A stretch of DNA of 64,000 nucleotides. Origin: a virus. The stretch is from positions 4,850 through 68,849 of the IMG/VR virus record IMGVR_UViG_3300027759_000079; one strand, 5' to 3'. The notes under the pieces were generated by a model. That model was not told the DNA's origin and did no database searches. It was given only the letters and a program-made list of their open reading frames with translations. Every line of letters starts with the position of its first letter. The stretch's first letter is position 1. Shown here piece by piece: positions 1-21,879 of this stretch. Made by a program: the position numbers and the translations under genes.

Positions 1-1731
1 TTTAAGCTCTGGCGGAAGGTCAAAACTCTGGTGACCATTAGCTGTTGTTGTAGGAATGATTAGAGAACACTGCGCTTTAACCAATTCGATCAAATCAGAT
101 TGATGGTCAACGAAATCAACCATCTTTGCGTCGTTCGTTTGATTATCTTCTTGATCTCGGAAGAATTTAATCGTTTTAATTGGAATGGTCTTGTTTTTTT
201 GAGCTGTGAAATCGTTATCAACAGCTTCAGCAGCGAACAGCATCTTTCTATGATCGAAGTTAGATTGCAATAACTCGTTGGCGTAGCGAATCCAAGAGCT
301 TGTTGGCACTCTAAGGTAACAGATACGAGTGTCTTTTAAGTTATACGCTCGTCTTGCTTTGCGAATCTCGTCTTGGTATTTTTCTGGCGAATCAAAATCA
401 GCTTCAAACATTTTGATTTCAATTTTGCTTTGTTTAAATACTTCGCTTTCGTTCGCAGCGTTGATAAACTGTACGCCACCGTTATAGTCGCCGCACATTC
501 CAACGATATTGAAGTTGTTCATCAAATAAGCTAAGTATTCGATGTGCTTTTTAAGATTAGTTCCTGATACAGCATAGTTGTGAACAAGAATTCCTTTACG
601 ATTAGCGACATCTAGCTTAATAAGATTAATAGCAAAGTCGTCAGACGATTCATTTTCTGCCCACGAAGGATCGAAGCTTAAAATATAATCAGAACCTTTC
701 TGTCCAGCCACTTCAATCGCCTGTCCTTCAAGCGGCTTGATCGTGCATTCGTGCATCTTGCTCAATTTAAAGTAACCAGAAGAATCATCCATGAATCTAG
801 AACCGAATTCTCTTTGGAACTGCGACTCAGACATTGTTGACTTAGCTTGTGTCAGCAAACTCTCATCATAAAGACCATGAGGAGCTACATCATAAGAAAA
901 ATGCAATATAGCTCTAGTTGAATTACCTTTTCCATCCTTTTCTGGAAACTTGATAAGCGATTCATATTGCTTGTATAGCTTATACATATACTCAAACTGA
1001 TAAGACGCAGAAGATAGTACAATAATTTTATTATTTGGCCATCTGAACCGCTCTTCTTCAGTCATATCTCCTTTAGCTATTAGCTGAGTCTCTAAATCAT
1101 ATACTTCTTTTCTCTCTGTTGGGTTCTGCACTACAGAAAGGAACGGAATAATAACTTCGTTGAAGATTCTTTCTGGCATCAACAAGAATTCGTCGATCAT
1201 CATACGGTGAAAGCGAAAACCACGAAGCTTTTCGCCATCGCCAAGAGGCAAGCAGGTAATTTTACTGCGACCAAACTCCATTGTCCATTCGTCAGAACTC
1301 TTAGACACTTTAGTGATAGCTTGCTTTAAGAAAATAGCATTTGGCTTGTCCGCGATTTCTTCAATCTTGCGGAAAATCATCTTTGCTTGACGAAATGTTT
1401 TACTTACGATGCCAATGTGAACACCTTGATTCAAAATCGCATCTAATGCAGCGAAAACCGCACAGGTAAAGCTCTTAGAAAGACCACGACTCCATACCAT
1501 CATGGAATAGTCTGTTTCAAACATCGTTTTAATTGCGAGATGCTGAAACGGAAACGGCTTTACGCCACAAATAATCTCAGATGAGAATGAAATGTTACTG
1601 CGCAGAAATTTATATAGAAGAATCTTAGCTTCGCGCTCTTCTAGATATCCTTCTTTCTTTAAAATCTCTTCGTTTACTTTATTGCTGTTGTAAACGCTTT
1701 TTCTTTTTTGGTCGCCAACGATCCAAGCCAT
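1..1731 (-). CDS. terL: terminase large subunit (C-terminus runs off window)
   Basis: Not in ORF track; manual translation from ATG 1731 (MAWIVGDQ...) is open to the edge. Shows FPFQ adenine-binding motif, Walker A WSRGLSKS, Walker B RGFRFHRMMIDE, coupling motif LSSA, QREF and RNase H-like SFDPS motif. Confidence 0.85.
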   Translation of the reverse strand, partial: MAWIVGDQKRKSVYNSNKVNEEILKKEGYLEEREAKILLYKFLRSNISFSSEIICGVKPFPFQHLAIKTMFETDYSMMVWSRGLSKSFTCAVFAALDAILNQGVHIGIVSKTFRQAKMIFRKIEEIADKPNAIFLKQAITKVSKSSDEWTMEFGRSKITCLPLGDGEKLRGFRFHRMMIDEFLLMPERIFNEVIIPFLSVVQNPTERKEVYDLETQLIAKGDMTEEERFRWPNNKIIVLSSASYQFEYMYKLYKQYESLIKFPEKDGKGNSTRAILHFSYDVAPHGLYDESLLTQAKSTMSESQFQREFGSRFMDDSSGYFKLSKMHECTIKPLEGQAIEVAGQKGSDYILSFDPSWAENESSDDFAINLIKLDVANRKGILVHNYAVSGTNLKKHIEYLAYLMNNFNIVGMCGDYNGGVQFINAANESEVFKQSKIEIKMFEADFDSPEKYQDEIRKARRAYNLKDTRICYLRVPTSSWIRYANELLQSNFDHRKMLFAAEAVDNDFTAQKNKTIPIKTIKFFRDQEDNQTNDAKMVDFVDHQSDLIELVKAQCSLIIPTTTANGHQSFDLPPELK

Positions 1732-7026: not shown

Positions 7027-7078
7027 ACTATTTTTTACACTTTAACTGGAAAAACCACCTCTTGAACTACTATAAGCT

Positions 7079-9200: not shown

Positions 9201-9204
9201 AATT

Positions 9205-10012: not shown

Positions 10013-10586
10013 TACAATAATTGATGATTTAGTGATAGAAGAAGTGTTAGTTTATAAAATTTCTAATGAAGGCCGTAAAAACAAGCTTTTGTGTTCTAAT
10101 ATCTTAGATCACAAGATCTGCTATAGTTGTAAACAAATAAAAAATTTTTCTGAATTTCATAAAGATGTAAAAAGAAAAAATGGTCGGCATGGATTATGTA
10201 AAAAGTGCACTAAATCAAGAAATCCAAAAAATAAAGAAACAAAGAGACAAGCGAAGATTGATATGGTGAATTTTCTAGGTGGAATGTGTATTAGATGCGG
10301 TTATTCACATCCAGAAGGAATTGATTTTCATCATATTGATCCATCTAAAAAATTATTTACAATCGGTGATAGTATAATATTCTATCCATTAAAAAGTCAA
10401 AAATGGATAGATGAATTACTAAAGTGCGTGCCGTTATGTAGAAACTGCCATGCCGAATTTCACGCTGGTAGATACACTCTAGAACAATATTTACACAAAT
10501 TACCAAAATTTAATGAAAACATTCAAAAACAGGATTTTACTGGGGATCAGCTTATACTTGGGTTTCAAATTGGCTGCTCTGATTGA
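9999..10586 (+). CDS. HNH endonuclease with zinc knuckles
   Basis: CYSC..CKKC, CIRCG, DFHHID...CVPLCRNCHAEFH. Confidence 0.8.
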   Translation: MIQTNTIIDDLVIEEVLVYKISNEGRKNKLLCSNILDHKICYSCKQIKNFSEFHKDVKRKNGRHGLCKKCTKSRNPKNKETKRQAKIDMVNFLGGMCIRCGYSHPEGIDFHHIDPSKKLFTIGDSIIFYPLKSQKWIDELLKCVPLCRNCHAEFHAGRYTLEQYLHKLPKFNENIQKQDFTGDQLILGFQIGCSD

Positions 10587-11117: not shown

Positions 11118-11435
11118 ATGGAAACAAATAATAAAAAAAATAAAAAATGGCCCAAGTTCTGGGCTTTATTCATCGACGAAGACATAAACAAAAAAGCTCA
11201 GACGCTCCAATCATTGTCTGAACTTCTTAAAACAAGAATAGCTGTTCTTAACGAAGCTATTCGTTTAGACTTAAAGTCTTTCTACAGCAGAAGAAACAAA
11301 AGATGGGTATTCTTTAAAGACCAGCAGTGGACCTTAAGCCCCGAATTAAATACATTAGGACTAAATATCTCTAAGGTAGGTAATAGACAAGCTGATTATA
11401 GAGTTATTCTTGATACTTTTAATAAAAAGAGTTAA
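11118..11435 (+). CDS. hypothetical protein
   Basis: Basic ORF starting METNN in co-oriented run. Confidence 0.45.
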   Translation: METNNKKNKKWPKFWALFIDEDINKKAQTLQSLSELLKTRIAVLNEAIRLDLKSFYSRRNKRWVFFKDQQWTLSPELNTLGLNISKVGNRQADYRVILDTFNKKS

Positions 11436-11448
11436 ATAAGGTATTTAT

Positions 11449-12120
11449 ATGAGTCTAAATATAAAAAAAGAAACTCCAAAAGAAAAAGTCGCTATAACCG
11501 CTACAGTTGTTAAAGATTTTTTAGATCTTTTGGATAGGATTGGTGGAATAGAAAATTTTCCTGAATCCATAAAGGTTTGGAGAGCTTACCGTTACAAGTA
11601 CGAAATAGAAGATTGTATTTCTGCCGAAGAAATAGCTACGCTATATAGATATGATGATGATGGCAATGTTTTTAACATTAGAACAGGCAGACAAGTTGGG
11701 CATCTTTTTGCAAAGGATAGTAGTTTACGCATTGAGGTTCGTTATAAACATTATAAATTTTTAGTTTCTTTGGCTAAAATTGTTTTTTGTTTAGTGCATA
11801 AACGTTGGGCCGAAAAGGGTTGCGATGTTGATCATAAAGACAATAATAAATTGAATAATAGACCATCCAATTTAAGAGAAGGTACAAAATCAGATAACGG
11901 AAGTAATAGAAGACAATTAAAAAAAACTAAATCAGGTATAAAAGGTATTTTTAAGATAAAAACAGGCGTTAGCGCTACTGTTTCAAAAAATAAAAAAATA
12001 TATTCAAAATATTTTGCTTATAATAAATACAATTCTGAAGAAGAAACTATACTCGCTGCCAAAACTTGGCGTGATGCTACCGCTAAAGAACTTCACGGCG
12101 AATTTTTCAACGAAAACTAA
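11449..12120 (+). CDS. HNH homing endonuclease with AP2-like C-terminus
   Basis: VDHKDNNKLNNRPSNLR; SGIKGI...AAKTWRDATAKELHGEF. Confidence 0.85.
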   Translation: MSLNIKKETPKEKVAITATVVKDFLDLLDRIGGIENFPESIKVWRAYRYKYEIEDCISAEEIATLYRYDDDGNVFNIRTGRQVGHLFAKDSSLRIEVRYKHYKFLVSLAKIVFCLVHKRWAEKGCDVDHKDNNKLNNRPSNLREGTKSDNGSNRRQLKKTKSGIKGIFKIKTGVSATVSKNKKIYSKYFAYNKYNSEEETILAAKTWRDATAKELHGEFFNEN

Positions 12121-12123
12121 TTT

Positions 12124-12708
12124 ATGAACGAAGATCATAAGCAAAATCAAGAATCTGAAGAGTTTTATATTACTTTTGAGCAGAGAGACGCTCTTTTGGA
12201 ATATCTAAGTTACTTTTCCATCAATAAAGAACGATATATAAAAGCTTATCTAGATTATAAAAATAAATTAACCATAGAGTTTCTGCATGAAAACTATATT
12301 GTTGATTTTAAGGAAGGTAAGTTATTTAATAGAAAAAACAATAAAGAAATAGGCTTTAAACATGGAGATTATCTTAATTGTTTTATTAAGGGTAAATCTA
12401 TCCGATTGCATATTGTAATTTTTGCTATGTATCATAATCGTTGGCCGCATTTAAATATGCTAGTTGACCATATAGATCGGAAGCGTTTAAATAATTCTAT
12501 ATCTAACTTACAAGAAGTCACTCCTGAAGGAAATAACAAGAATGCGAGTAAATTTAACCATGGAATAAAGGTAGTTTATTTAAAAAATACAATAAAGTAT
12601 AGGGTTACGAGATTTAAAACTTATATTGGTTCATATGATTCTTACGAAGAAGCCTTGAAAGTCTCTTTAAATTGCAAAAGAGAAGATTTAATAAAAAGGC
12701 TTAGTTAA
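12124..12708 (+). CDS. HNH homing endonuclease
   Basis: RLHIVIF...VDHIDRKRLNNSISNLQEVT...N; YIGSYDSYEEA tail. Confidence 0.85.
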   Translation: MNEDHKQNQESEEFYITFEQRDALLEYLSYFSINKERYIKAYLDYKNKLTIEFLHENYIVDFKEGKLFNRKNNKEIGFKHGDYLNCFIKGKSIRLHIVIFAMYHNRWPHLNMLVDHIDRKRLNNSISNLQEVTPEGNNKNASKFNHGIKVVYLKNTIKYRVTRFKTYIGSYDSYEEALKVSLNCKREDLIKRLS

Positions 12709-12905
12709 ATTTCCCCCCGCCCGGAAAGCGAGTTTTACTTTTAGTTGTTTTTAAGTTTTTTCTCTTTTTCTTAGAAAAGGGTGGGGGGTATTAAGTTTAT
12801 GTGGCGCAAAAGCGCAAGATTGCGCCATGTGGCGCAAGTAATTGAATTAAGATGGTTTTAGTTGAATGTAGAGCGAGGAATTACCATCCCCCCCCGCCGC
12901 CACAC

Positions 12906-12946
12906 AAAAAACCCCCGCACTTTTTTTCAAAATGGGGGGGAGTCTT
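12906..12946 (-). terminator. probable intrinsic terminator
   Basis: Minus strand GACTCCCCCCC...GCGGGGGTTTTTT, imperfect hairpin plus U-tract right after stop at 12947. Confidence 0.45.
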
Positions 12947-13150
12947 TTAGTGAATATAGTCCATGAGCAAGTCATAGCCACACAAGTCAAACAGCATTTC
13001 AAGCTGCGCCTCTGTTAAGTCAACGCCATCGACAAAATGCGCCGACACGATAAACGCGTCCGAATAATCGGGTGCATCATTGTGGTCAATTCCATCGAAA
13101 TCAACCGATTTTAGATCAACTTCTTTTCCATCTATTGTAACGTTTTTCAT
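12947..13150 (-). CDS. hypothetical acidic phage protein
   Basis: 67 aa, DGIDHNDAPDYSDAFI motif. Confidence 0.6.
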   Translation of the reverse strand: MKNVTIDGKEVDLKSVDFDGIDHNDAPDYSDAFIVSAHFVDGVDLTEAQLEMLFDLCGYDLLMDYIH

Positions 13151-13441: not shown

Positions 13442-13522
13442 GCGAAATTCTATTTTTTTGTGCGTTGTTTTGTAAGTAGCGTAAATAAAACAACTAAGAA
13501 GATAAGAAAAGAAAGCATTTTC

Positions 13523-14236
13523 TCATGCGTTGACGGACGTTTTAACCACGAAGCCGCTTTCATCTTGTTTTCCTTTACCCTTGGCATACAAGGCAACGAC
13601 GACGTTTTTAGCATCGAGGAAACGTAGGTCGCTAGAATCTCCGTTGGCTACGGTGTAACCGTTCCACGTCGTTGGATAGTTAGCCGAGTCAAACACTACC
13701 GCAACGTTGCCACCTGCGGCCAACACTTGCAACGCTTCGACCTCGTTTGATTCACTGCGCGAGAATGTCAAATGGTAGTTAGCTGGCATTTCTCCGCGAG
13801 CGTGCGCTAATGCACGCGAAACGCTTTTCGTGTAGTCGTAGAACTGTACGTTGGGGAATTGCTGCATGACACCGAGACGCTCCCATGGTATGTCGCTAGT
13901 ACCATTCAAGCGCACACAGTAAGTCATGCCCAACTTAGCTGCACGCTTCATGCCGCGCACAATATCCTTGTTCAACTGCATGAAAAATGCTTTCTTGTCA
14001 GTGAAAAATAACCGTGTCTTGCGGATGCGTCCTAAGCGCACGTTACTCATGCGGCCACGTCCTGCGGTGAATAGGCAAACGGCAAGGCAACCTGCCGATG
14101 CGTTCACGCAAAGATTGCCGAAGCCTCCTTCGTTCGCGGGCGCAAGGTAAAGTATGTCAGTTAGGAACTTAAGAGCAAAACCCTTTGAGGTTTTCGCGTC
14201 TGAATTGCTGGCAAGTAAAGGAAGCGATTTAGTCAT
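13523..14236 (-). CDS. gp88-like (radical-SAM-related) phage protein
   Basis: LCVNASAGCLAVCL, VRLNGTSD, QFYDYTK, NYHLTFSRSE, GDSSDLRFLD; start reassigned to MTKSL at 14236. Confidence 0.7.
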   Translation of the reverse strand: MTKSLPLLASNSDAKTSKGFALKFLTDILYLAPANEGGFGNLCVNASAGCLAVCLFTAGRGRMSNVRLGRIRKTRLFFTDKKAFFMQLNKDIVRGMKRAAKLGMTYCVRLNGTSDIPWERLGVMQQFPNVQFYDYTKSVSRALAHARGEMPANYHLTFSRSESNEVEALQVLAAGGNVAVVFDSANYPTTWNGYTVANGDSSDLRFLDAKNVVVALYAKGKGKQDESGFVVKTSVNA

Positions 14237-14323
14237 GCGGAAAAATTGACCGTTTCCGTGCATAAAAACGATTAAAAAATAATTAAAAATCTTCACTAAA
14301 AAAACGAGGTTGGCATGGCAAAT

Positions 14324-14515
14324 TGTTCCACGGTGCGCGAATTGTTCCACGAAAAAGGCGCGCAGAATAACGGCGAAAAAAATAAAGTCAAACTTTTTTT
14401 TCAGAAAAAAATTGTTCCACGACGAAAAATTGTTCCACAGCCGGGCCGGGCCCGGTATGTTCCACGACCCCCAAATTGTTCCACGAAATTGTTCCACGCT
14501 GAAAAATTGTTCCAC
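14324..14515 (+). repeat. TGTTCCAC array 1 (8 copies) with central CCGGGCCGGGCCCGG core at 14441-14455
   Basis: Copies start at 14324, 14343, 14413, 14431, 14458, 14477, 14490, 14508. Confidence 0.95.
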
Positions 14516-14554
14516 GCTCTGAATAAAAAAAGATTAAAAAAGATTAAAAAAGTG

Positions 14555-14582
14555 TTGCTATCTGTAAAACATGAGTCATTAT
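14555..14582 (+). promoter_or_regulatory. sigma70-like promoter, leaderless
   Basis: AAGTG-TTGCTA-N16-CATTAT-N7-ATG; same geometry as 16455-16482. Confidence 0.55.
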
Positions 14583-14589
14583 CAGTCTT

Positions 14590-14784
14590 ATGAATCAAAC
14601 ATCTACTGTCTTCGTTGTTCTCTCTCCCTCCGCGATTTCTCTTCGCCTTTGTTTCTTGGGGCATGGCTCCACGAAAGAAGAAGCGATGGCCGACGCCTTC
14701 GGCCCTAAGCCTTGGCCACGCTCTGCCAAGAGTGCCGTCTGCAAAGAAGTGAGCGAAGATGAATTTTTCGACCTCAAATACTAA
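14590..14784 (+). CDS. hypothetical protein
   Basis: 64 aa, first gene after promoter. Confidence 0.55.
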   Translation: MNQTSTVFVVLSPSAISLRLCFLGHGSTKEEAMADAFGPKPWPRSAKSAVCKEVSEDEFFDLKY

Positions 14785-14864
14785 TATGAATGAATACGAA
14801 TTAGCCGAAATTTTCCTTGCAAACAATCTCTCCACAAGTAAAGTAATTGAACACCTAAAAAAAC

Positions 14865-15323
14865 ATGAAATCTCTATTCCTCCTCGCCGCGTCTTTGATT
14901 GGGCTTTCGACATTGCAAGCTTCGCAGATTCCCAAACCAACGGAAATTCTCGTCACCATAAGCAAAAGTGAAATCGTCGCCGCAACTTTGATTGCTGAAG
15001 CTGGCGGCGAAAAAGACTTTCGCGCAATGGCCGCAGTTGCCGAAGTAATTTACAATCGCTCACTCGCCCGCAAAATCTCGCCCGCGCAAGTTTGCTTGCA
15101 ACCAAAACAGTTCTCTTGCTGGAACAACAAAGATGTCGAAGGTGGAATTGAAAAAGCGAAGAAGCACAAGAAATGGTCAAACGCTCTCAAAATTGCTCAA
15201 AATTTAGGCTCGACAAATTACACGAAAAACGCACAGTTTTATCACACGATACAAATTAATCCTTCATGGAATAAAAAAATGCTTGCAACCGTAACGATTG
15301 AAAATCATAAATTCTACAAATGA
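14865..15323 (+). CDS. SleB/Hydrolase_2 cell-wall hydrolase with signal peptide
   Basis: TLIAEAGGE...AVAEVIYNR...QPKQFSCWN...FYH...IENHKFYK. Confidence 0.85.
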   Translation: MKSLFLLAASLIGLSTLQASQIPKPTEILVTISKSEIVAATLIAEAGGEKDFRAMAAVAEVIYNRSLARKISPAQVCLQPKQFSCWNNKDVEGGIEKAKKHKKWSNALKIAQNLGSTNYTKNAQFYHTIQINPSWNKKMLATVTIENHKFYK

Positions 15324-15598
15324 AAATCCAACCTACTACCGTCAACTTGTCTTACAAAACTGGCACGATTGCCAACGTCACCATTCAACAAATCACCAAC
15401 GCTCTTGGCTTTGAACCTCGCAACAGTAGCGACGGCAAATCTTGCGCCATGTGGGATTTCTCTGTTGAGCTAAATGGCGAAACTCACGACTGCTCAATCT
15501 GGGACTGGAAAGGATCTAGTTCCGAAAAATATTTTTCTTGCTTCATGCCGTTTCAAATTCAGGATGAAGTCGAGAAATTGCTAAAACAACAAAACTAA
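15320..15598 (+). CDS. hypothetical phage protein
   Basis: 92 aa, ATGA overlap; DGKS..W..IWDWK pattern. Confidence 0.6.
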   Translation: MKIQPTTVNLSYKTGTIANVTIQQITNALGFEPRNSSDGKSCAMWDFSVELNGETHDCSIWDWKGSSSEKYFSCFMPFQIQDEVEKLLKQQN

Positions 15599-15629
15599 AA
15601 CAAAAAACACTAGATAGGAAATTGCTAAA

Positions 15630-16151
15630 ATGAACACGAACATTGCTACGGAAATTCAGAAACTCACAAACACCGCTTTGCCAATCATGGAGAAGCTCGA
15701 TGCTGCTAAGAGTCTTGAAAAACAGATTCGGAAACAAATTGTTGAACTCGCTGCTGAACGTAAGCAGGAAATCAAAGAAGCGTCTGACTTGGAGAAGCGC
15801 GTTGCCGCTGCCGTCGAACACGCATATGCTACCTCTGAGCCTCAGAAATACAAAGGCAACAGTCACACGCTTTCCGCTGCTCGGAATTGGCTCGCCCAAC
15901 TCACCAAAGCAAAGAAGAAGCCGAACATTAGCCAAGGCGTGCGTCAGTTGTTTGATAGGGAAAAAGCTGTGAGCCTCACGCGCTCGCGTGGATGGCTGCA
16001 TGAAGAAGAACGCATCAAAATCGCATTCTATGCCCAAAATCTTCCGAAGGTTACTGACCGCGTTAATTGTGTACTTCACTTCACTCATATCGCAACAAAG
16101 TTCAACTGCTCTGTTATGACTGTGAGGAATTATTCTAATTACTCTGCATGA
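15630..16151 (+). CDS. hypothetical protein, coiled-coil N-terminus, possible C-terminal HTH
   Basis: 173 aa; FTHIATKFNCSVMTVRNY resembles HTH. Confidence 0.5.
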   Translation: MNTNIATEIQKLTNTALPIMEKLDAAKSLEKQIRKQIVELAAERKQEIKEASDLEKRVAAAVEHAYATSEPQKYKGNSHTLSAARNWLAQLTKAKKKPNISQGVRQLFDREKAVSLTRSRGWLHEEERIKIAFYAQNLPKVTDRVNCVLHFTHIATKFNCSVMTVRNYSNYSA

Positions 16152-16309
16152 TATAATTTTACGGACTATAATATAGGGAGAACCTATATAGGGTTTTTGG
16201 TATGTTGAACCCATTTTAACACCGTACTACGCCGCGCTATATAGTAATATATAGTGCGGTTTTTTTGCTATATAATATATAGTGTCTAGTTGCAAGTTAC
16301 TTGCGATAA

Positions 16310-16416
16310 CCGGGCCGGGCCCGGTTGTTCCACGACGACCAAAATGTTCCACGGAAATGTTCCACGCAGAAAAAAATGTTCCACGAAATTGTTCCACGCT
16401 GCGCGCATTGTTCCAC
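16310..16416 (+). repeat. CCGGGCCGGGCCCGG core (16310-16324) + TGTTCCAC array 2 (6 copies)
   Basis: Copies start at 16326, 16345, 16358, 16377, 16390, 16409 (spacing 19,13,19,13,19). Confidence 0.95.
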
Positions 16417-16454
16417 ACTACGCAAAAAATCTTTCGATAAAGTGAAAATAAGTG

Positions 16455-16482
16455 TTGATGAAAACAAAAGAGCGGTCATTAT
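16455..16482 (+). promoter_or_regulatory. sigma70-like promoter, leaderless
   Basis: AAGTG-TTGATG-N16-CATTAT-N7-ATG. Confidence 0.55.
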
Positions 16483-16489
16483 CTGAAAT

Positions 16490-16723
16490 ATGGAAAATAA
16501 CACTACTCAAAAAACCGTCGCGGAGATCCGCGATGAAATCGACAATATCCGCTCCAAAATGTGCGGCCAGTTCGCTTACCTTGGAATGTTCGACAAAAGC
16601 TACTTCGACCTTTTCACGAAGGAGCAACTCGTCGAGCGTTTCGCTGACATTGCCAACGAATCAAAACAACTCAAAGATCAGTACGATCAGAAAATCAACG
16701 AAATGCTTAACGCAAAATCTTAA
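16490..16723 (+). CDS. hypothetical coiled-coil protein
   Basis: 77 aa directly after promoter. Confidence 0.6.
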   Translation: MENNTTQKTVAEIRDEIDNIRSKMCGQFAYLGMFDKSYFDLFTKEQLVERFADIANESKQLKDQYDQKINEMLNAKS

Positions 16724-16724
16724 A

Positions 16725-16928
16725 ATGGAAAATCAAACTAGACACTTAACTCTCACCACGACGGAAATCGGCGTGCTTGAATCTCTCCTCTCAAATCCAG
16801 TAATCGGCTTATCGGACAAAAATCGCATTGCTTTCCGCGATTATCTCGTCGATGCTGCTCACTTCAATAAGCGGTACGAAATTTGCCGCACTGAATCCAC
16901 TACCTTCAAATTTTACTCCCATGAATAA
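16725..16928 (+). CDS. hypothetical protein
   Basis: MENQTRH start 1 nt after upstream stop. Confidence 0.5.
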   Translation: MENQTRHLTLTTTEIGVLESLLSNPVIGLSDKNRIAFRDYLVDAAHFNKRYEICRTESTTFKFYSHE

Positions 16929-17214
16929 TGAACTAAAAAATACCATCGAGAAGATCGTCGCGTCTAAAGGCGCGGCTATCGTCTCTTTCAACTACAACGG
17001 CAAGAAACGCAACGGCGTGATCGGCTTCAGCTCAGAGAAGAAAGGACTTGGCCCGCGAGTGTGGGGCGAGCATCTTTCCTCTGCTATCGTCGAGCATAAC
17101 GGTAAACTGTTCTTGTCGATGCAGACGAACAACGAAGAAACTCCAACAGGTCACGCTTTCAAATCGTTCGACCTTTCCAAGATCGAAAACTTCAGTCATA
17201 AATCCAAAAAATAA
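16921..17214 (+). CDS. hypothetical protein (SH3/WYL-like beta pattern)
   Basis: VSFNYNGKKR...FKSFDLSKI. Confidence 0.45.
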   Translation: MNNELKNTIEKIVASKGAAIVSFNYNGKKRNGVIGFSSEKKGLGPRVWGEHLSSAIVEHNGKLFLSMQTNNEETPTGHAFKSFDLSKIENFSHKSKK

Positions 17215-17220
17215 AATCCC

Positions 17221-17985
17221 ATGAAAATGTTAAACTTAGCCGTATCAGGCGCAGATCATGCGTCTGTTCCTCTCGATCAAATCAACCTAGTGCCAACGCC
17301 ACAAGCGACGAGCACTTTTCAACCTATCGCTCACAGTGTCCTCATCGACATTTTCCGCGATCAACTCAAAACCGCTGGCTTGTCTGTTCTCTCGGAACAC
17401 CACACGCTGGCCCGCTACGGTCAACGCTACTTCGGTCTTTTTCAAATCGACATGAAGCGCGAAGGCGCGAGTTCGGGAACGGTTGTTGGATTGCGTAACG
17501 CTCACGACAAGAGCTTTCCTGCTGGCATTTGCGCGGGGAACGCTCCGTTCGTGTGCTCAAACCTCTGCTTCCATAATGAGGTCGTGCTTGGTCGTAAGCA
17601 CACCACGCATATCATGAAGCACTTGCCCGAAATCGTCTCGCGTGCCATTGGCAAGCTTGGCGATATGTGGGTCAAGCATGAGAAGCGGGTCGAAGGTTAT
17701 TCCAACACTGTCCTCACTGACGAGCAAGCTGGTCACCTGATTCTCAAAGGTTACCGCGCTGGCGCGATTGGCAAAGGTATGATCGTGGACGTTCTCGATC
17801 AGTGGGAAAAACCTCTGCATGAGGAATTCGCACCGCGTAACTTGTGGTCGCTGCACAATGCGTTCACGGAGGTTTATAAAGGCAACCTCGTCGCCTTGCC
17901 GAAACGCTCGGAGGCGTTGCATAGCATCTTTGATCCGTTCGCAGGTCTTACTGTGGACATGAGTCCCATCGAGATCGCTGTATAA
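17221..17985 (+). CDS. DUF932-family protein
   Basis: GLRNAHDKSF...FVCSNL...RKHT...NLWSLHNAFTE. Confidence 0.75.
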   Translation: MKMLNLAVSGADHASVPLDQINLVPTPQATSTFQPIAHSVLIDIFRDQLKTAGLSVLSEHHTLARYGQRYFGLFQIDMKREGASSGTVVGLRNAHDKSFPAGICAGNAPFVCSNLCFHNEVVLGRKHTTHIMKHLPEIVSRAIGKLGDMWVKHEKRVEGYSNTVLTDEQAGHLILKGYRAGAIGKGMIVDVLDQWEKPLHEEFAPRNLWSLHNAFTEVYKGNLVALPKRSEALHSIFDPFAGLTVDMSPIEIAV

Positions 17986-18004
17986 TATAATATAATATAG
18001 TCGA

Positions 18005-18039
18005 GGGGCTGCACCTTTATGGTGTGGCCCCTTTTTTTT
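18005..18039 (+). terminator. intrinsic terminator
   Basis: GGGGCTGCACC-TTTAT-GGTGTGGCCCC followed by T8. Confidence 0.85.
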
Positions 18040-18048
18040 GAAAAAAAA

Positions 18049-18124
18049 TGTTCCACGACGCCTAAATTGTTCCACGAAAATGTTCCACGACGTGCAAAAT
18101 GTTCCACAGCCGGGCCGGGCCCGG
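18049..18124 (+). repeat. TGTTCCAC array 3 (4 copies) + CCGGGCCGGGCCCGG core (18110-18124)
   Basis: Copies start at 18049, 18068, 18081, 18100 (19,13,19). Confidence 0.95.
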
Positions 18125-18248
18125 TAGATGCAAAATCTTTGCGTTAATTTTACTATAGCATTATATATACTATACTATAGCTATATCATTATTACATATT
18201 ATATCATTCACCTTTCATTATTATGTATTATATAGTTCAGCTTTCGTT

Positions 18249-18335
18249 TTTTAGTATTAAGAGAAAAGTGATTCACCTTTTAGTATTAAGCAGTAAGTGA
18301 TTCACCTTTTGTTATTACGAGAGAAGTGATTCACT
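18249..18335. repeat. three 29-bp tandem repeats with palindromic GTGATTCAC
   Basis: GTGATTCAC at 18268, 18297, 18326; unit ~TTTTAGTATTAAG-N4-AAGTGATTCACC. Confidence 0.85.
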
Positions 18336-18397
18336 ATTGATACTATTACCATGATAAAAAATATCATGAATACGAAATAGGCGGGTGTTGACATATG

Positions 18398-18472
18398 TGG
18401 TGTCCTCAGAAAGAATCGAACTTTCATTGAGGCTTTAGAAGAGCCTTGTATTATCCGTTATACGATGAGGGC
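18398..18472 (-). tRNA. tRNA-Arg(TCT)
   Basis: Cloverleaf, anticodon stem AGGCT/AGCCT, loop CTTCTAA, GTTCGA T-loop, encoded CCA. Confidence 0.85.
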
Positions 18473-18475
18473 AAA

Positions 18476-18552
18476 TGGCGGGATGGACGAGACTTGAACT
18501 CGCGGCCTTCTGCGTGACAGGCAGACGCTCTAACCAATTGAGCTACCACCCC
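18476..18552 (-). tRNA. tRNA-Asp(GTC)
   Basis: GGGGTGGTAGCTCAATTGGTTAGAGC...CTGTCAC...GTTCAAGTC...CCA. Confidence 0.95.
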
Positions 18553-18558
18553 AAATTA

Positions 18559-18729
18559 TTAACTTTGTTGTTGTTTGAGTTTATCTCGTTGCAATTTTCT
18601 CATCTCGTTCTGAAATTTGCGATCTTTCTTTTCATCATACTTAAGAGCTTTGTCAAACTCTAATTTATACTTAGCATAAATGAATCGCAGTGTATTCATT
18701 GTAGATGATGCTTCTTCTGGTAAAGCCAT
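18559..18729 (-). CDS. hypothetical protein (56 aa)
   Basis: Manual translation MALPEEASSTMNTLRF...; fills gap before tRNAs. Confidence 0.45.
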   Translation of the reverse strand: MALPEEASSTMNTLRFIYAKYKLEFDKALKYDEKKDRKFQNEMRKLQRDKLKQQQS

Positions 18730-18738
18730 ATTAATGTA

Positions 18739-19005
18739 TTAGTCGGCAGTTAAAAAAAATGAATTTCTTGGATGTGGATGATCTTTATCCATTATGCCAT
18801 AAGCAATCTTTTCTGCTTGCTCATAGTTATCTGCTTCGATAGGAATTTTGTTTGGATTAAAATAGACTATACAATCCCCAACAATAGCCGCATTGCGCGA
18901 AACAAATCTACCTTCGCCCATCTCAACGACTCTTTGAACAGATTGATGAATAATACTGTTAATTCTGCACCCTTTAACTTGGTATATATTTATATTGTAT
19001 TTCAT
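18739..19005 (-). CDS. hypothetical protein
   Basis: MKYNINIY start 1 nt after upstream stop. Confidence 0.5.
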   Translation of the reverse strand: MKYNINIYQVKGCRINSIIHQSVQRVVEMGEGRFVSRNAAIVGDCIVYFNPNKIPIEADNYEQAEKIAYGIMDKDHPHPRNSFFLTAD

Positions 19006-19006
19006 C

Positions 19007-19192
19007 TTAATGAATAAGGAAGTAATCTTTACTGTGAGAGTTAATCTCAAATGATGAGAGATCGTTTGTTTCTACAATGTGACGTAATTTCTCTAATACT
19101 TTCTTCTCGGCTTCTTCTTTAGAAGATGCGTCAAGCAGATCATAAAAATTAACAGAGAAAGCATAAGATGTTTTGGTTCTAGATTTAGACAT
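19007..19192 (-). CDS. hypothetical protein
   Basis: 61 aa, ASSKEEAEKK motif. Confidence 0.5.
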   Translation of the reverse strand: MSKSRTKTSYAFSVNFYDLLDASSKEEAEKKVLEKLRHIVETNDLSSFEINSHSKDYFLIH

Positions 19193-19195
19193 AAG

Positions 19196-19351
19196 TTAGT
19201 TGTTTAGTTCAAGTAAAATTTTGTTCGTTTTCTTTGGCACAGCTACCACAGGAGTAAGTTCATCAGTCCAGACGTTCCAGACTGTAACGGTTTGTTCTAG
19301 CTGCTCAGGAGAGAAGGTTTGCAGTTTTTCGATTAGTTGTTTATATGTCAT
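19196..19351 (-). CDS. hypothetical protein
   Basis: MTYKQLIEKLQTFSPEQLEQTVTV; start reassigned. Confidence 0.55.
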   Translation of the reverse strand: MTYKQLIEKLQTFSPEQLEQTVTVWNVWTDELTPVVAVPKKTNKILLELNN

Positions 19352-19589
19352 GTTAGTAATTAGTTTATCAAAAGTTTTCGCGTGATTAAAGTATGCGCGA
19401 CCCACTTCCGGTTCCTCCCAGCCAAATTTGTGGTATCGGCGGATTGAGGAAAATGTTTGAAAGAGCGGCCTGATTTCCCGCCCCACCTAGTATTGTCAGG
19501 CGTGGGGGGCGGGAGTCAGATGACCTCAACAAAGATGAGTGTGAGAATTTTTTTGGACTCGTCAATAGTTTTTCTGCTTTTTTTTCTTT

Positions 19590-20528
19590 TTATTTTTTCT
19601 CAATAACAGCAGATAAAGCCTTGACACCTTCAGCAGTAATCTTTCGCGCACCTTCGATCTTCATGTAGCCGCGCTGGAGGAGGAACAGTTCAACGTCGCG
19701 TTGAAGAGCGGAGCGAGAGATGCCAGTCACAGCACTTAGCATAGACAGCGAGCAGTCGCCGCGCTGATGAAGAGTTGTCAACACTTGAATCTCAGAGTTA
19801 GATAGACCAGAGGAGTTGATGCCGATCTTGTCGCAGAGAGCTGTCCAGTCAGAGGTGTCAAATGTTTTTTTATTTTTCATTTGGCAATACATCTCGACTT
19901 GCTTTGCGCGTTGGATAGCAGAGCGAGCGTTACCGCGAACAGTCTTGGCTACGAGTTCAAGCACATTTTCTTTGAAATCAATTTCGGGAAATGCGCGTTT
20001 GATAATCTCGGCGGTTTCTTCAAGCGAGTACGCTTGAAAGTCAATCGAGAGCAAACGATCTTTCAGCGGAGTGAATAAACGATCTTGTTCAGTCGTTGCC
20101 AGCATAAAAGATTGCTGCTTAAAATTGAACTCGTACAGTCCATCTTTCCAGCTCACTTGCTTGCGCTCAGTCTTTTCTGTATTAAACGCCGAAAGTAATA
20201 CAGTCATTAAGTCTTTGGGCAGAGCATGACACTCATCCAGTAGAACAGTAACTTCGTTGTTTTGAATCACAGGAGCGAACACTTGTTCAAAGAACACTTG
20301 AGCGTTCTTGATCGTGCCGCAGTTGATCTCAAGGAATGGGCGAGCTTGCCCATCTTTGCCAACGATAGAACGCGCCGCTTCTTTGGCGAACTCGGTCTTG
20401 CCCATTCCCTTTGCGCCAGTGAGCAAAAGAAAAGGAAAACGCTGTGATTGATTTTGGGCGTCAAGATAAAAGTCGAACTTCTTCTTAACGTCAGTTTGGC
20501 CGATTAGGTTGGTGAAACGAGTTTTCAT
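19590..20528 (-). CDS. ruvB: RuvB-like Holliday junction branch-migration AAA+ ATPase
   Basis: LIGQ, GAKGMGKT, LLDECH, LATTE, PLKDR, RGNARSA and winged-helix tail VELFLLQRGYMKIEGARKIT. Confidence 0.75.
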   Translation of the reverse strand: MKTRFTNLIGQTDVKKKFDFYLDAQNQSQRFPFLLLTGAKGMGKTEFAKEAARSIVGKDGQARPFLEINCGTIKNAQVFFEQVFAPVIQNNEVTVLLDECHALPKDLMTVLLSAFNTEKTERKQVSWKDGLYEFNFKQQSFMLATTEQDRLFTPLKDRLLSIDFQAYSLEETAEIIKRAFPEIDFKENVLELVAKTVRGNARSAIQRAKQVEMYCQMKNKKTFDTSDWTALCDKIGINSSGLSNSEIQVLTTLHQRGDCSLSMLSAVTGISRSALQRDVELFLLQRGYMKIEGARKITAEGVKALSAVIEKK

Positions 20529-20529
20529 G

Positions 20530-20757
20530 TTAGTTTAGTTGGGTCAATTTATATTCAATAACAGGTGAGATTTCTTGTTTAACTTCACTGACAATGGGTG
20601 CAATCAAATTTACTGTCAAGCCCATTTTTTCTAGCCATACGCGAGAAACAGGAACAGGAATTTCCCCGAAACGTTTTAGGTCGGAGATCGACACGTTAAC
20701 AAAAGAGGTGCCGCCAGCGGGACGACCTCTGCCTTTTTTTAGTGATGTAGTAACCAT
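20530..20757 (-). CDS. small basic protein (GRGRP motif)
   Basis: KKGRGRPAG AT-hook-like motif. Confidence 0.5.
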   Translation of the reverse strand: MVTTSLKKGRGRPAGGTSFVNVSISDLKRFGEIPVPVSRVWLEKMGLTVNLIAPIVSEVKQEISPVIEYKLTQLN

Positions 20758-20765
20758 AGACCAGA

Positions 20766-20794
20766 ATTAAAAATCATTTTTAATCCATCGTCAA
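20766..20794 (-). promoter_or_regulatory. sigma70-like promoter, near-leaderless
   Basis: TTGACG-N17-TTTAAT-N8-ATG. Confidence 0.65.
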
Positions 20795-20824
20795 CATCTT
20801 TTTTAATCTTTTTTTAAAATAAAA

Positions 20825-20883
20825 TGTTCCACGATGTTACTAATGTTCCACAAAAATGTTCCACAACGTGCAGAATGTTCCAC
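20825..20883 (+). repeat. TGTTCCAC array 4 (4 copies)
   Basis: Copies start at 20825, 20844, 20857, 20876 (19,13,19). Confidence 0.95.
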
Positions 20884-20898
20884 ACTAACTAAGCAGCT

Positions 20899-21441
20899 TT
20901 ACTCGGTTTTCTTTTCTTTGGCTGAGATGATCTTGTTTTTCCATACCATCCAGCCAATGCCCAAGATAAACGACAGCACCACCAGTACGGTAACTACGTA
21001 CTTGCCAACGAACGATTCTTGTTGCGGTTTAATTGCAATAGTTTCTATTGCAGGTACTTTGCCCATAGGTACTATATCTACTTCCTCATTATTTAGCTTA
21101 TTACCATTCGTGTTCTCATTATTAGGAGAAATACTATTCGTGTTTGGAATCTTTTTATATGAATTTAAAATAGCTTCTTTAGTCTTCTCTTCTACTAACT
21201 TATTCAAATCACTTTCTTTTACCATGATATATTTCTCGGCATTAAAGTTGACGATTGCCGGGCGCCCGGCAGAAGGCGTAGCTTCTACTGGCTGCTTATT
21301 TACAACCGGGCTGTTCGTGTTTGGTTTAACAAAGACTGGCGCATTTTTATTAGCTATTGTACCATCTGGCATCTTCATAAAGGAACTGCAACCACTTAAC
21401 AATAAAGATAATAAGGCTATATTTAGACTTTTTTGATTCAT
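20899..21441 (-). CDS. lipoprotein with C-terminal TM helix (u-spanin-like topology)
   Basis: Lipobox LLLSG-C, Ser at +2, C-terminal YVVTVLVVLSFILGIGWMVW then basic tail. Confidence 0.55.
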   Translation of the reverse strand: MNQKSLNIALLSLLLSGCSSFMKMPDGTIANKNAPVFVKPNTNSPVVNKQPVEATPSAGRPAIVNFNAEKYIMVKESDLNKLVEEKTKEAILNSYKKIPNTNSISPNNENTNGNKLNNEEVDIVPMGKVPAIETIAIKPQQESFVGKYVVTVLVVLSFILGIGWMVWKNKIISAKEKKTE

Positions 21442-21462
21442 GTTTAGGTTCCTATATTTAGC

Positions 21463-21879
21463 TTACTTCAGTTCACCTTTTGACTTTAGCATTTTAGCAT
21501 TAGCCAAATGTAATTCTTTTACTTTCTCTTTGTTTTCTCCTTGATAAGCAACAGCATAGTAATTAGAGATCATCCATTCATTTACTTCTATACCAGAAGG
21601 TGTCTTTAACTTAGCTAAGATGCGCCCAAATTTTTCATTAGGATCTAATTTAGTCTCTATATATACATACTCATCTTTAGATAATACTTCTTTTAGTTTC
21701 TCTTTAGATAACTGTCCTCTTACTTTCTCTTCTTTATCTGATGTTCTGCTCTCTGGAGTATCAATACCATCTAGTCGGATGCGCTGTGCGCGCAACCAAA
21801 CGCCGAAACCAAGGTCGAAATCGACCTCAATAGTGTCTCCGTCAATGACTGAAATGATTTTTGCTTTATATTGATACAT
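21463..21879 (-). CDS. staphylococcal nuclease (SNase)-like protein
   Basis: VIDGDTI, IRLDGIDTPE, EKFGRILA, VNEWMI. Confidence 0.9.
   Translation of the reverse strand: MYQYKAKIISVIDGDTIEVDFDLGFGVWLRAQRIRLDGIDTPESRTSDKEEKVRGQLSKEKLKEVLSKDEYVYIETKLDPNEKFGRILAKLKTPSGIEVNEWMISNYYAVAYQGENKEKVKELHLANAKMLKSKGELK

What the first reader, a model, noticed from the sequence alone, without database searches (positions are those of the whole stretch)
14324..20883. Four phased TGTTCCAC arrays with conserved 19/13-bp spacing
Seen: 22 copies of TGTTCCAC(G/A), all on the same strand, in four intergenic arrays (8, 6, 4, 4 copies). Start-to-start spacing alternates 19,13,19,13,19 in array 2 and 19,13,19 in arrays 3 and 4; the right half of array 1 gives 19,13,18. 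The sequence between boxes varies freely. The 32-bp period is about three helical turns, pointing to selection for a phased nucleoprotein complex. Known: TGTTCCAC is one half of the parS palindrome TGTTCCACGTGGAACA, and TGTTCCACA matches the DnaA box TTATCCACA at 7/9. Inference: these are iteron-like sites for a phage or host protein (ParB, DnaA, initiator or repressor). They could mark a multi-part origin, a decoy that titrates a host protein, or an injection-stop region like that of T5. Three arrays abut promoters and one follows a terminator.
Basis: partly seen in the sequence, partly recalled or inferred. Interest (0 to 1): 0.85.

Follow-up and report, generated by a model that had tools for sequence, protein, structure and literature searches.

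The report
Half-parS box arrays in phage cassettes
Four arrays of a perfectly conserved 8-base word sit in the promoter-terminator cassettes that flank swappable early-gene modules of an uncultured lake phage; they look like docking sites for a DNA-binding protein, possibly the host's chromosome-partition protein ParB.

Summary
There are 22 exact TGTTCCAC on one strand in four arrays with 19/13-bp spacing, against 1.26 expected, and no decayed copy inside any array. The window is about half of an uncultured freshwater phage of roughly 140 kb with no close cultured relative.

In kin at 70-98% clamp-loader identity, the same boxes recur with the same spacing while the spacers differ.

The arrays are not a free-standing origin. 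They fill one slot of a repeated cassette: GC palindrome CCGGGCCNGGCCCGG, then boxes, then phased A-tracts, then TTGNNN-16-CATTMT, then ATG 7 nt on. The cassettes bound early-gene modules that are reordered between relatives and within lake populations, with joints inside the arrays. This resembles the PeSL elements of T4-type phages.

Kin carry the full 16-bp parS palindrome, perfect or with one mismatch, in their cassette regions. In the clearest cases it stands where the window has array 2 or array 3. No phage ParB was found.

Best reading: these are protein-docking arrays that read a parS half-site. Host ParB is the leading candidate but is unproven.

The parts
13523..14236 (-). GP88-family gene. 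It is the leftward neighbour of array 1; the + strand ORF 13926-14150 is its antisense.
   Evidence: Pfam PF17338, E 2.4e-46; translation
14324..14515 (+). Array 1, 8 boxes: a pair at 14324/14343, a pair at 14413/14431, then four at 14458-14515. Spacings are 19,70,18,27,19,13,18.
14441..14455 (.). GC-rich palindrome CCGGGCCGGGCCCGG inside array 1
   Evidence: 3 sites in the window, 0.07 expected
14555..14592 (+). Promoter-like TTGCTA-16-CATTAT, then 7 nt, then ATG at 14590 (a leaderless-type layout). It is preceded by the phased A-tract repeats aaaaaagatt.
14590..16151 (+). Early module 1: small ORFs, a cell-wall hydrolase-like gene at 14865-15323, and a 173-aa protein with an HTH-like C-terminus at 15630-16151
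16231..16260 (+). Terminator-like hairpin with a T run, ending module 1
16310..16324 (.). GC-rich palindrome abutting the left end of array 2
16326..16416 (+). Array 2, 6 boxes, spacings 19,13,19,13,19
16455..16492 (+). Promoter-like TTGATG-16-CATTAT, then 7 nt, then ATG at 16490
16490..17985 (+). Early module 2, including a weak, sub-threshold DUF932-like gene at 17221-17985
18003..18033 (+). Strong terminator-like hairpin (13 pairs) at the convergent point
18049..18107 (+). Array 3, 4 boxes, spacings 19,13,19
18110..18124 (.). GC-rich palindrome abutting the right end of array 3
20766..20794 (-). Promoter-like TTGACG-17-TTTAAT on the - strand. It reads into the 75-aa gene at 20530-20757 and the clamp-loader gene at 19590-20528. 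It is conserved in L128, L129 and L146.
20825..20883 (+). Array 4, 4 boxes, spacings 19,13,19. It lies 30 nt upstream of the - strand promoter, so the boxes are inverted relative to that promoter.

Best explanation
The arrays are docking sites for a sequence-specific DNA-binding protein. They are built into repeated early-gene regulatory cassettes of an uncultured freshwater phage.

Each cassette has, in order: a GC-rich palindrome (CCGGGCCNGGCCCGG), often after a terminator; a slot that in this lineage holds 2 to 10 boxes AAAW-TGTTCCAC-G, arranged as 19-bp pairs set 32 bp apart; 10-11-bp phased A-tract repeats; a sigma70-type promoter TTGNNN-16-CATTMT; and an ATG 7 nt later.

The box is exactly one arm of parS, and kin carry the whole parS palindrome in their cassette regions. 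I take the host's ParB, bound as monomers or dimer arms to half-sites, as the leading candidate (my odds about 0.35). A phage protein of unrecognised fold comes next.

I infer that the bound arrays modulate the adjacent early promoters and may titrate the binder as phage DNA replicates.

Because all arrays point the same way, they also serve as direct-repeat homology patches through which early-gene modules are excised, swapped and reordered, as in the PeSL elements of T4-type phages.

Shown: the anatomy, its conservation, module reordering with joints in the arrays, and the absence of a phage ParB in the records searched. Inferred: protein binding, the identity of the binder, and any effect on transcription.
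For: (1) Box counts. There are 22 exact boxes on one strand against 1.26 expected, and 0 of 35 one-mismatch copies lie inside the arrays.

(2) Conservation. Of 15 loci found through the clamp loader, 5 carry the boxes with 19/13(14)/18-19 spacing, including three at only 70-71% protein identity. A scan for the three-box pattern gave 15 stretches in 13 viral contigs, 11 of them kin, but only 2 unrelated stretches in 185,579 bacterial species genomes.

Over 13 related loci, some of them near-duplicates, 130 boxes lie on the majority strand and 9 on the other. Of 97 neighbour intervals, 88 are 13/14 or 18/19, and none is 32, 38 or 45, the values that a lost box would give. The spacers have low information content.

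(3) Cassette anatomy. Twelve distinct cassettes share TTGNNN-16-CAT[TA][AC]T-7..9-ATG. The distance from the last box to the -35 hexamer is 27 in 3 cassettes, 38-39 in 7 and 48-49 in 2. The GC palindrome adjoins 3 of the 4 window arrays and most kin cassettes.

(4) Link to parS. A perfect TGTTCCACGTGGAACA sits after a terminator in L128, at the place of array 2. It also occurs in G019. TGTTCCACGTAGAACA, or its reverse complement, occurs in L136-138 at the place of array 3 and in L140 and L141. AGTTCCACGTAGAACA occurs in L140-142.

(5) No ParB_N domain was found in G000-G005. G000, G001 and G002 together span about 128 kb of an estimated 143 kb (the G002 part is inferred from lengths). No HTH_3, Sigma70_r4 or RHH_1 reached threshold in 5 box-bearing records.

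(6) Published ChIP-seq shows that P. aeruginosa ParB binds the half-parS heptamer GTTCCAC genome-wide, independently of dimerisation and of the CTP-pocket residues (PMC10419367, passages read).

(7) Module shuffling. G016 has modules 1 and 2 in the opposite order, with arrays at the junctions. Contigs from 4 lake metagenomes show joints 16327->14457, 18090->14504 and 18075->14526, among others. No integrase or resolvase was found.
Against: No binding was tested and the host is unknown.

The closest kin of the box-bearing L136-138 (L133 and L135; DUF932 tree) have a different element, TGCCAA-N19/20-TTGGCA, in the same slot. L130-132 have no boxes. The boxes are therefore dispensable and lineage-specific, which fits a phage-encoded specificity at least as well as a universal host ParB.

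A strictly kept 19/13 lattice suggests a cooperative, oriented assembly rather than independent half-site docking.

In P. aeruginosa, half-parS binding had no dominant effect on local transcription (PMC10419367).

Box orientation is fixed relative to the genome, not to the promoter: array 4 is inverted relative to its promoter. This is awkward for a simple activator model.

The 27/38/48 distance classes may only reflect copy number of the 10-11-bp A-tract repeats.

The records are fragments (28-52% complete), so a phage ParB or another binder could lie in the unseen part.
Confidence: 0.55

Rival explanations
1. The boxes are operators for a phage-encoded early or middle regulator of unrecognised fold, acting as a temporal switch on a subset of early promoters. 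The resemblance to parS is a coincidence or a mimicry that has no role for host ParB.
For: Slot content changes between very close kin: a TGTTCCAC pair in L136-138 against TGCCAA/TTGGCA in L133 and L135. Only some cassettes of one phage carry boxes (L136).

A small three-helix ORF (window 14759-14968) is present in 13 loci. Twelve of these carry boxes or parS-like palindromes, and the thirteenth (L139) carries only a GTTCTAC-type near-palindrome. The ORF is absent from 5 loci that lack these elements but do cover the neighbouring hydrolase gene.

Module 1 also encodes a 173-aa protein with an HTH-like C-terminus.
Against: No recognisable DNA-binding family reached threshold in 5 box-bearing records.

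The three-helix ORF has no significant structural match. It overlaps the hydrolase signal-peptide coding region by about 85-210 nt, so it may be spurious, and its correlation with the boxes rests on two or three clades.

Recognition-helix variants of the 173-aa protein do not track the boxes. The AbrB/MazE-like protein also occurs in 4 of 5 box-less records.

This reading does not explain why kin keep the exact parS geometry.
Confidence: 0.3
2. There is no dedicated binder. The arrays are only homology patches of PeSL-type cassettes, kept uniform by recombination and gene conversion, and their only role is modular shuffling.
For: Module order differs between kin, with junctions at the arrays. 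Joints fall inside the arrays in 4 metagenomes. All arrays are in direct orientation. PeSLs are known to act this way (PMC2839356, passages read).
Against: Conversion would homogenise the spacers as well, yet the spacers vary freely while 8-13 bp stay invariant. The box and spacing survive at about 70% protein identity. An exact 13-bp repeat unit gives only about 21 bp of continuous identity.
Confidence: 0.08
3. The arrays are iterons or DnaA-box clusters of a multi-part replication origin, or a decoy that titrates DnaA.
For: They are direct repeats in several clusters near a replication gene, the clamp loader. A/T-rich tracts lie beside them.

In unrelated phages, TGTTCCAC(C/G) repeats sit beside genes for VapE-like, Prim-Pol/AAA_25 and DUF927 proteins. 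These were 4 of the 10 proteins scanned; I read them as primase-helicase-type replication proteins.
Against: The boxes match TTWTNCACA at 7 of 9 positions (16 boxes) or 8 of 9 (6 boxes), and none matches fully. The 13/19 spacing is neither the roughly 11-bp DnaA lattice nor the roughly 22-bp iteron lattice (both recalled, not from a call).

No DnaA_C domain reached threshold. No initiator gene lies beside the arrays. Cumulative GC skew has no extremum at 14-21 kb.

Close kin lack the boxes altogether, which would be odd for an origin.
Confidence: 0.05
4. The arrays are an injection-stop or genome-end signal of the T5 type.
For: A preprint proposes that 8 specifically arranged DnaA boxes in the T5 left terminal repeat form the stop signal (bioRxiv 10.1101/866236, abstract and section 3.3.3 read).
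Against: The arrays lie about 57-64 kb from the left end of the composite map and at least 45 kb from the right ends. The region is full of promoters and genes on both sides. There are no inverted-repeat pairs of boxes 3 bp apart, as in T5.
Confidence: 0.02

Closest known systems
PeSL (promoter-early stem-loop) cassettes of T4-type phages (Arbiol et al. 2010, PMC2839356; Comeau et al. 2014, PMC4122927)
   Same: Both are repeated intergenic elements made of a G/C-rich stem-loop, an AT-rich stretch and a sigma70-type early promoter. Both flank small genes of unknown function in a plastic region. In both, close relatives differ by swaps and indels whose junctions lie in the elements. No dedicated recombinase is found in either.
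   Different: [quoted passage not shown] The slot content is exchangeable between lineages. The first gene starts 7 nt after the -10 hexamer. The phage has no close cultured relative and carries tail genes of the lambda type, so membership of the T4 group is not shown. Mini-circles were not tested.
Half-parS binding by chromosomal ParB of Pseudomonas aeruginosa (PMC10419367; PMC5961200)
   Same: The same heptamer, GTTCCAC, is involved. It is bound outside any palindrome, at many sites, without need of dimerisation or the CTP pocket.
   Different: There the half-sites are scattered singly through a bacterial chromosome. Here they form phased arrays of 4-10 upstream of phage promoters. No ParB is known for this system.
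KorB/OB operators of IncP plasmid RK2 and omega/heptad arrays of pSM19035 (both recalled, not read here)
   Same: A centromere-binding protein doubles as a global regulator through several operator copies placed upstream of several promoters. The omega protein reads both direct and inverted repeats.
   Different: Those replicons encode their own binder. The operators are palindromes (KorB) or contiguous 7-bp heptads (omega), not 13/19-bp phased direct repeats.
DnaA-box set in the T5 injection-stop region (bioRxiv 10.1101/866236)
   Same: It is a conserved, specifically spaced set of short host-protein boxes in a non-coding region of a large lytic phage.
   Different: The T5 boxes are in the terminal repeat, lie in pairs 3 bp apart inside inverted repeats, and fit the DnaA consensus. 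None of these holds here.

Membership tests
parS/ParB centromere | 16-bp palindrome TGTTNCACGTGNAACA | tested here: not met
   The window has only half-sites. No 16-mer within 2 mismatches was found anywhere in the 68.8-kb record; the few 16-mers at 3 mismatches are box starts inside the arrays and two unrelated sites, none a palindrome. Kin do carry it: perfect in L128 and G019, with one mismatch in L136-138, L140 and L141.
parS/ParB centromere | Cognate ParB (ParB_N domain) encoded by the replicon | tested here: not met
   PF02195 was absent from G000-G005. All records are fragments.
parS/ParB centromere | ParB binds and spreads from the site | not testable with these tools
   This needs EMSA or ChIP, and the host is unknown.
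PeSL cassette | G/C-rich stem-loop next to an AT-rich stretch and a sigma70-like promoter | tested here: met
   The palindrome adjoins 3 of 4 arrays. Promoter-like sites follow arrays 1, 2 and 4.
PeSL cassette | Elements flank plastic modules, and relatives differ by swaps or indels at the elements | tested here: met
   Module order is inverted in G016. Joints lie inside the arrays in 4 metagenome runs.
PeSL cassette | Promoter and terminator activity; formation of mini-circles | not testable with these tools
   No RNA holder was listed, and only contigs were available.
DnaA-box cluster | 9-mer fitting TTWTNCACA | tested here: not met
   By reading the boxes, the fit is 7 of 9 for the 16 G-ending boxes and 8 of 9 for the 6 A-ending boxes.
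Iteron origin | Initiator gene beside the repeats | tested here: inconclusive
   The genes flanking the arrays are GP88, a hydrolase-like gene, a weak DUF932-like gene and the clamp loader. No DnaA_C was found. Other Rep families were not searched.
T5 injection-stop region | Located in the non-coding part of a terminal repeat | tested here: not met
   The arrays lie at least 45 kb from all contig ends of the composite map, and IMG/VR classes the records as having no end repeats.

The most novel reading that the evidence does not exclude
A lytic freshwater phage lineage plugs binding sites for host chromosome-biology proteins into the upstream slot of its mobile early-promoter cassettes. In some lineages these are half-parS arrays or whole parS sites for ParB; in close kin they are a sigma54-type -24/-12 element.

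On this reading, host ParB is recruited in dozens of copies per phage genome. It times or boosts early transcription, and it is progressively titrated away from the host centromere as the phage replicates. The same arrays let the cassettes hop between positions.
Probability: 0.2. Interest if true: 0.8.

Novelty: new variant of a known kind. Interest (0 to 1): 0.6.

Why it matters
If the boxes are bound by host ParB, this would be a lytic phage that uses the host's partition protein through half-sites. It would give a natural, high-density test bed for the still unexplained half-parS binding of ParB.

Whoever the binder is, the cassettes show that PeSL-style modular shuffling is not confined to cultured T4-type coliphages and vibriophages. 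It operates in abundant lake phages. The cassettes also carry an exchangeable operator slot, so regulation and gene content are shuffled together.

The strict lattice (19-bp pairs, 32-bp period), 22 of 22 perfect boxes and a uniform leaderless-type promoter make it an easy system to test on the bench.

Tried and rejected
- **First collection scan** (TGTTCCAC-N5-11-TGTTCCAC). Most hits had spacings in multiples of 9, which I read as collagen-like coding repeats; that reading was not checked. About a dozen unrelated contigs had intergenic pairs 13 bp apart. Their neighbours were VapE-like, Prim-Pol/AAA_25 and DUF927 proteins (which I read as primase-helicase type), terminases or proteins of unknown function, and none of the 10 records had ParB_N. 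Because these contigs were selected by the motif itself, they say nothing about the binder here.
- **Co-occurrence screen for a binder**.
  - The 173-aa HTH-like protein does not track the boxes.
  - The AbrB/MazE-like protein also occurs in box-less kin.
  - A roughly 200-aa family (9184-9804) is limited to box-bearing loci, but coverage of that region is uneven and it has no Pfam match.
  - The three-helix ORF tracks the boxes, but it overlaps the hydrolase gene and has no fold match.
- **Fold of the 173-aa protein.** There was no match at E <= 0.001. The best, non-significant rows are HTH proteins.
- **Weak DnaA_C hit in G001** (14 bits). It lies in a 118-aa ORF and covers only profile positions 6-30, so I dismissed it.
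- **Sub-threshold HTH_3 hit** (13 bits). It lies in a 314-aa open frame of G002 at a position that corresponds to the clamp-loader gene, so I dismissed it too.
- **Rfam.** The scan of 12-22 kb found only the two tRNAs.
- **Melnitz.** The first 50 of 141 kb were examined and held no such arrays. It proved to be only a distant relative through one gene.
- **Relatives search.** The genome search 'relatives' is not available for a virus record.
- **Sequencing runs.** No RNA holder was listed, and only contigs could be laid, so transcription starts, molecule ends and expression could not be examined.
- **Literature.** Searches for the motif, for 'half-parS' and for parS / host ParB / phage genome turned up no paper describing such arrays in a phage. 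Supplementary files were not consulted.

Full report
**1. The observation**

TGTTCCAC occurs 23 times in the window. Twenty-two copies are on the + strand, in four arrays at the stated coordinates. The mean in 100 dinucleotide-preserving shuffles was 1.26, and 0 of 100 reached 23. The ninth base is G in 16 boxes and A in 6.

With one mismatch allowed there are 35 more copies (58 in all, 36.8 expected). None of these lies in an array. The arrays therefore contain only perfect boxes, with no decaying copies. The 4.8 kb of the record that lies outside the window adds no copy.

**2. What the DNA is**

The window is bases 4850-68849 of a 68.8-kb IMG/VR virus record rated 48% complete. It encodes rIIA and rIIB, a clamp loader, ribonucleotide reductase, lambda-type tail proteins and five tRNAs.

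No phage in a 50,697-record collection matches it at the DNA level. The best protein matches are 39-41% for a cyclase (Melnitz and HTVC008M) and 27% for rIIA. Parts of the stretch are held by contigs of lake and freshwater metagenomes from 16 studies. The host is unknown.

**3. Local anatomy**

The gene to the left of array 1 is a GP88-family gene on the - strand at 13523-14236 (PF17338, E 2.4e-46). The + strand ORF there is its antisense.

Arrays 1 and 2 are followed, 39 and 38 nt after the last box, by TTGCTA-16-CATTAT and TTGATG-16-CATTAT. In each case an ATG follows 7 nt later. The intervening DNA consists of 10-11-bp A-tract repeats.

Array 3 follows the 13-pair terminator at 18003-18033, at the point where + and - transcription converge.

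Array 4 lies 30 nt upstream of a - strand promoter, TTGACG-17-TTTAAT. That promoter reads into a 75-aa gene and the clamp-loader gene, again with the ATG 8 nt after the -10 hexamer. Its boxes are therefore inverted relative to the promoter they adjoin.

The palindrome CCGGGCCGGGCCCGG occurs three times in the window (0.07 expected). Each copy touches an array: inside array 1, to the left of array 2 and to the right of array 3.

**4. Relatives**

The clamp loader retrieved 15 related loci at 70-98% identity. Five of them carry the boxes:
- L128 has two arrays with spacings 19,13,18.
- L129 has 19,14,18.
- L136 and L138 have 19,13,19, plus separate pairs at 19.
- L137 has a pair at 19.

The other ten have none or only single copies.

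A scan for box-N10/11-box-N5/6-box found 15 stretches in 13 viral contigs. Eleven are kin; two belong to an unrelated phage with TGTTCCACC boxes. The same pattern occurs in only 2 unrelated stretches among one genome each of 185,579 bacterial and archaeal species.

Whole-record counts show the strand bias: 24/0, 14/0, 14/0, 9/0, 12/1, 6/1, 10/2, 9/2 and 6/1.

Over 13 related loci, some of them near-duplicates of one another, 130 boxes lie on the majority strand and 9 on the other. The 97 neighbour intervals are 13 (24), 14 (2), 18 (13), 19 (49), and ten others (25, 27, 44, 69, 70, 99). No interval is 32, 38 or 45, which a lost box would give.

The extended consensus is AAAW-TGTTCCAC-G(A/C). 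Spacer columns carry 0.1-0.5 bit, apart from a weak GAYG after the first box of a 19-bp pair.

The natural unit is a pair 19 bp apart. Arrays are such pairs set 32 bp apart.

**5. The cassette**

In L136-138 and their kin every unit reads: palindrome CCGGGCC(a/t)GGCCCGG, GTCAAG, an A-run, 2 or 4 boxes, A-tract repeats, TTGACx-16-CATTCT, 7 nt, ATG.

Twelve distinct cassettes fit TTGNNN-16-CAT[TA][AC]T-7..9-ATG. The distance from the last box to the -35 hexamer is 27 in 3 cassettes, 38-39 in 7, and 48-49 in 2. A thirteenth regex hit lies at a lone box in coding-like DNA. Nineteen last boxes had no match, among them arrays 3 and 4 and internal sub-arrays. The one-turn steps follow from the copy number of the A-tract repeat, so I do not count them as independent evidence for phasing.

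Only some cassettes of one phage carry boxes (L136).

The slot is exchangeable:
- L133 and L135 group with L136-138 in the DUF932 tree (99/99 support). In the same slot they have TGCCAA-N19/20-TTGGCAYG-N4-TTGT, whose right part resembles a sigma54 -24/-12 element.
- L128 has (CTACCC)n and (ACCTACCCCT)10 arrays where the window has arrays 2 and 3.
- L149 and L155 have TTGCAA/ACTTGC words beside the palindrome.

**6. The parS link**

The box plus its usual ninth base, TGTTCCACG, is exactly one arm of the palindrome TGTTCCACGTGGAACA.

That whole palindrome stands directly after a terminator in L128, at the place of array 2. It also occurs in G019.

The one-mismatch form TGTTCCACGTAGAACA occurs as follows:
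- as its reverse complement, in L136-138 in the convergent gap where the window has array 3;
- in L140 and L141, about 20 bp before the GC palindrome.

AGTTCCACGTAGAACA stands in the same position in L140-142.

By my own arithmetic, a 16-mer within one mismatch is expected about 5e-4 times per 20-kb locus.

Whatever reads the box therefore also accepts the exact head-to-head geometry of parS.

No ParB_N domain was found in G000-G005. G001 reaches 38.2 kb beyond the left end of G000. G002 starts at array 3 and is 66.7 kb long. Together the three records should span about 128 kb of an estimated 143 kb; the G002 part is inferred from lengths alone.

HTH_3, Sigma70_r4 and RHH_1 did not reach threshold in five box-bearing records.

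In P. aeruginosa, ParB binds GTTCCAC half-sites genome-wide. Monomeric and CTP-pocket variants do so as well. No dominant effect on local transcription was seen (PMC10419367, passages read).

**7. Shuffling**

In G016 the order is GP88, array, about 350 bp, array, module 2, array, module 1. This is the reverse of the window's order, and homology switches at the arrays.

Contigs from four lake metagenomes (four studies) laid on 13500-21500 show these joints:
- 16327->14457 in two runs;
- 18090->14504;
- 18075->14526;
- 16284->18109;
- 18036->16267;
- a 90-letter replacement of the palindrome in array 1, in two runs.

No tyrosine or serine recombinase was found in five records.

This is the behaviour described for PeSLs: stem-loop, AT-rich stretch and sigma70 promoter, flanking ORFans, and recombining to swap modules (PMC2839356, passages read; PMC4122927, abstract and first part of the text read).

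A uniform direct orientation is what such exchange needs if it is to avoid inversions. That accounts for the orientation being fixed on the genome rather than relative to promoters.

**8. Interpretation**

I consider it well supported (about 0.8) that the arrays are selected protein-docking elements belonging to PeSL-like cassettes.

The identity of the binder is open:
- host ParB, or a protein with its specificity: about 0.35;
- an unrecognised phage protein: about 0.3;
- another host factor: about 0.1.

The remainder goes to there being no dedicated binder, or to an origin or injection role.

Against ParB stand the exchangeability of the slot between close kin and the strict lattice. Against a phage binder stand the lack of any candidate that tracks the boxes convincingly and the retention of parS geometry.

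The origin, DnaA and T5-type readings fail on consensus fit, spacing, position in the genome and absence from close kin.

**9. Novelty**

This is a new variant of a known kind: PeSL-type cassettes with an added, phased half-parS operator array and an exchangeable slot. They occur in an uncultured freshwater phage lineage.

My literature searches found no description of it. Supplementary files were not seen.

I did not test it.

Noticed in passing
window 14577-14592, 16477-16492 and 20757-20771; kin cassettes in L136-138, L160-162 and L164: The first gene of each cassette starts 7-9 nt after the -10-like hexamer (12 distinct cassettes) and has no Shine-Dalgarno sequence. This suggests leaderless first genes in these early operons.
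   Followed up: partly
L133 (rc) 1396, 2288, 8164; L135 (rc) 513, 1405, 8164; L140-142 (rc) 2368, 2587, 2070: In box-less close kin the cassette slot holds TGCCAA-N19/20-TTGGCAYG-N4-TTGT. The right part resembles a sigma54 -24/-12 promoter, with GT in place of GC at -12.
   Followed up: partly
L128 (rc) 4231-4342, 5395-5558, 7058-7102, 8255-8354: There are long arrays of CTACCC (6-bp period, 18 copies) and ACCTACCCCT (10-bp period, 10 copies) at cassette positions. The complementary strand is GGGTAG-type and could form G-quadruplexes. A CACGCGCA x6 array lies at 4347-4396.
   Followed up: no
window 18266-18334: Three copies of AAGTGATTCAC(CTTTT) occur at a 29-bp period, between array 3 and the - strand tRNA-Arg and tRNA-Asp genes. 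They lie in an unusually AT-rich stretch full of TATA repeats.
   Followed up: no
window 12709-12950: The convergent gap between the long + operon and the - strand GP88 operon is full of poly-C and poly-G runs. It also has two copies of ATGTGGCGCAA flanking an inverted GCGCAA. The poly-G/poly-C content recalls PeSL stem-loops.
   Followed up: no
window 11449-12120, 12124-12708 and 9999-10586: There are two tandem HNH endonuclease genes (phrog_99, E about 1e-27 each). A third ORF gave a weak HNH_2 match (E 0.0022, 18.2 bits, below the Pfam cut-off of 21). All three lie just upstream of the plastic region.
   Followed up: no
window 14759-14968 against 14865-15323: A conserved small three-helix ORF overlaps the signal-peptide coding part of the cell-wall hydrolase gene in another frame. 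It is present only in kin that carry TGTTCCAC-type elements, so it is either an overprinted gene or an artefact.
   Followed up: partly
L130 (rc) 11408-11824; L131 (rc) 13487-15860; L142 (rc) 17778-18259: Other kin carry large arrays of CACTTGGT(T) with a 12/24-bp period, or a 15-bp-period GC-rich repeat, to the right of the clamp loader. I did not check whether these are coding.
   Followed up: no
window 36345-38393: A 682-aa adenylate/guanylate cyclase-like protein is shared at 39-41% identity with Pelagibacter phage HTVC008M and Methylophilales phage Melnitz. It gave by far the closest match to cultured phages of the two proteins compared with that collection.
   Followed up: no
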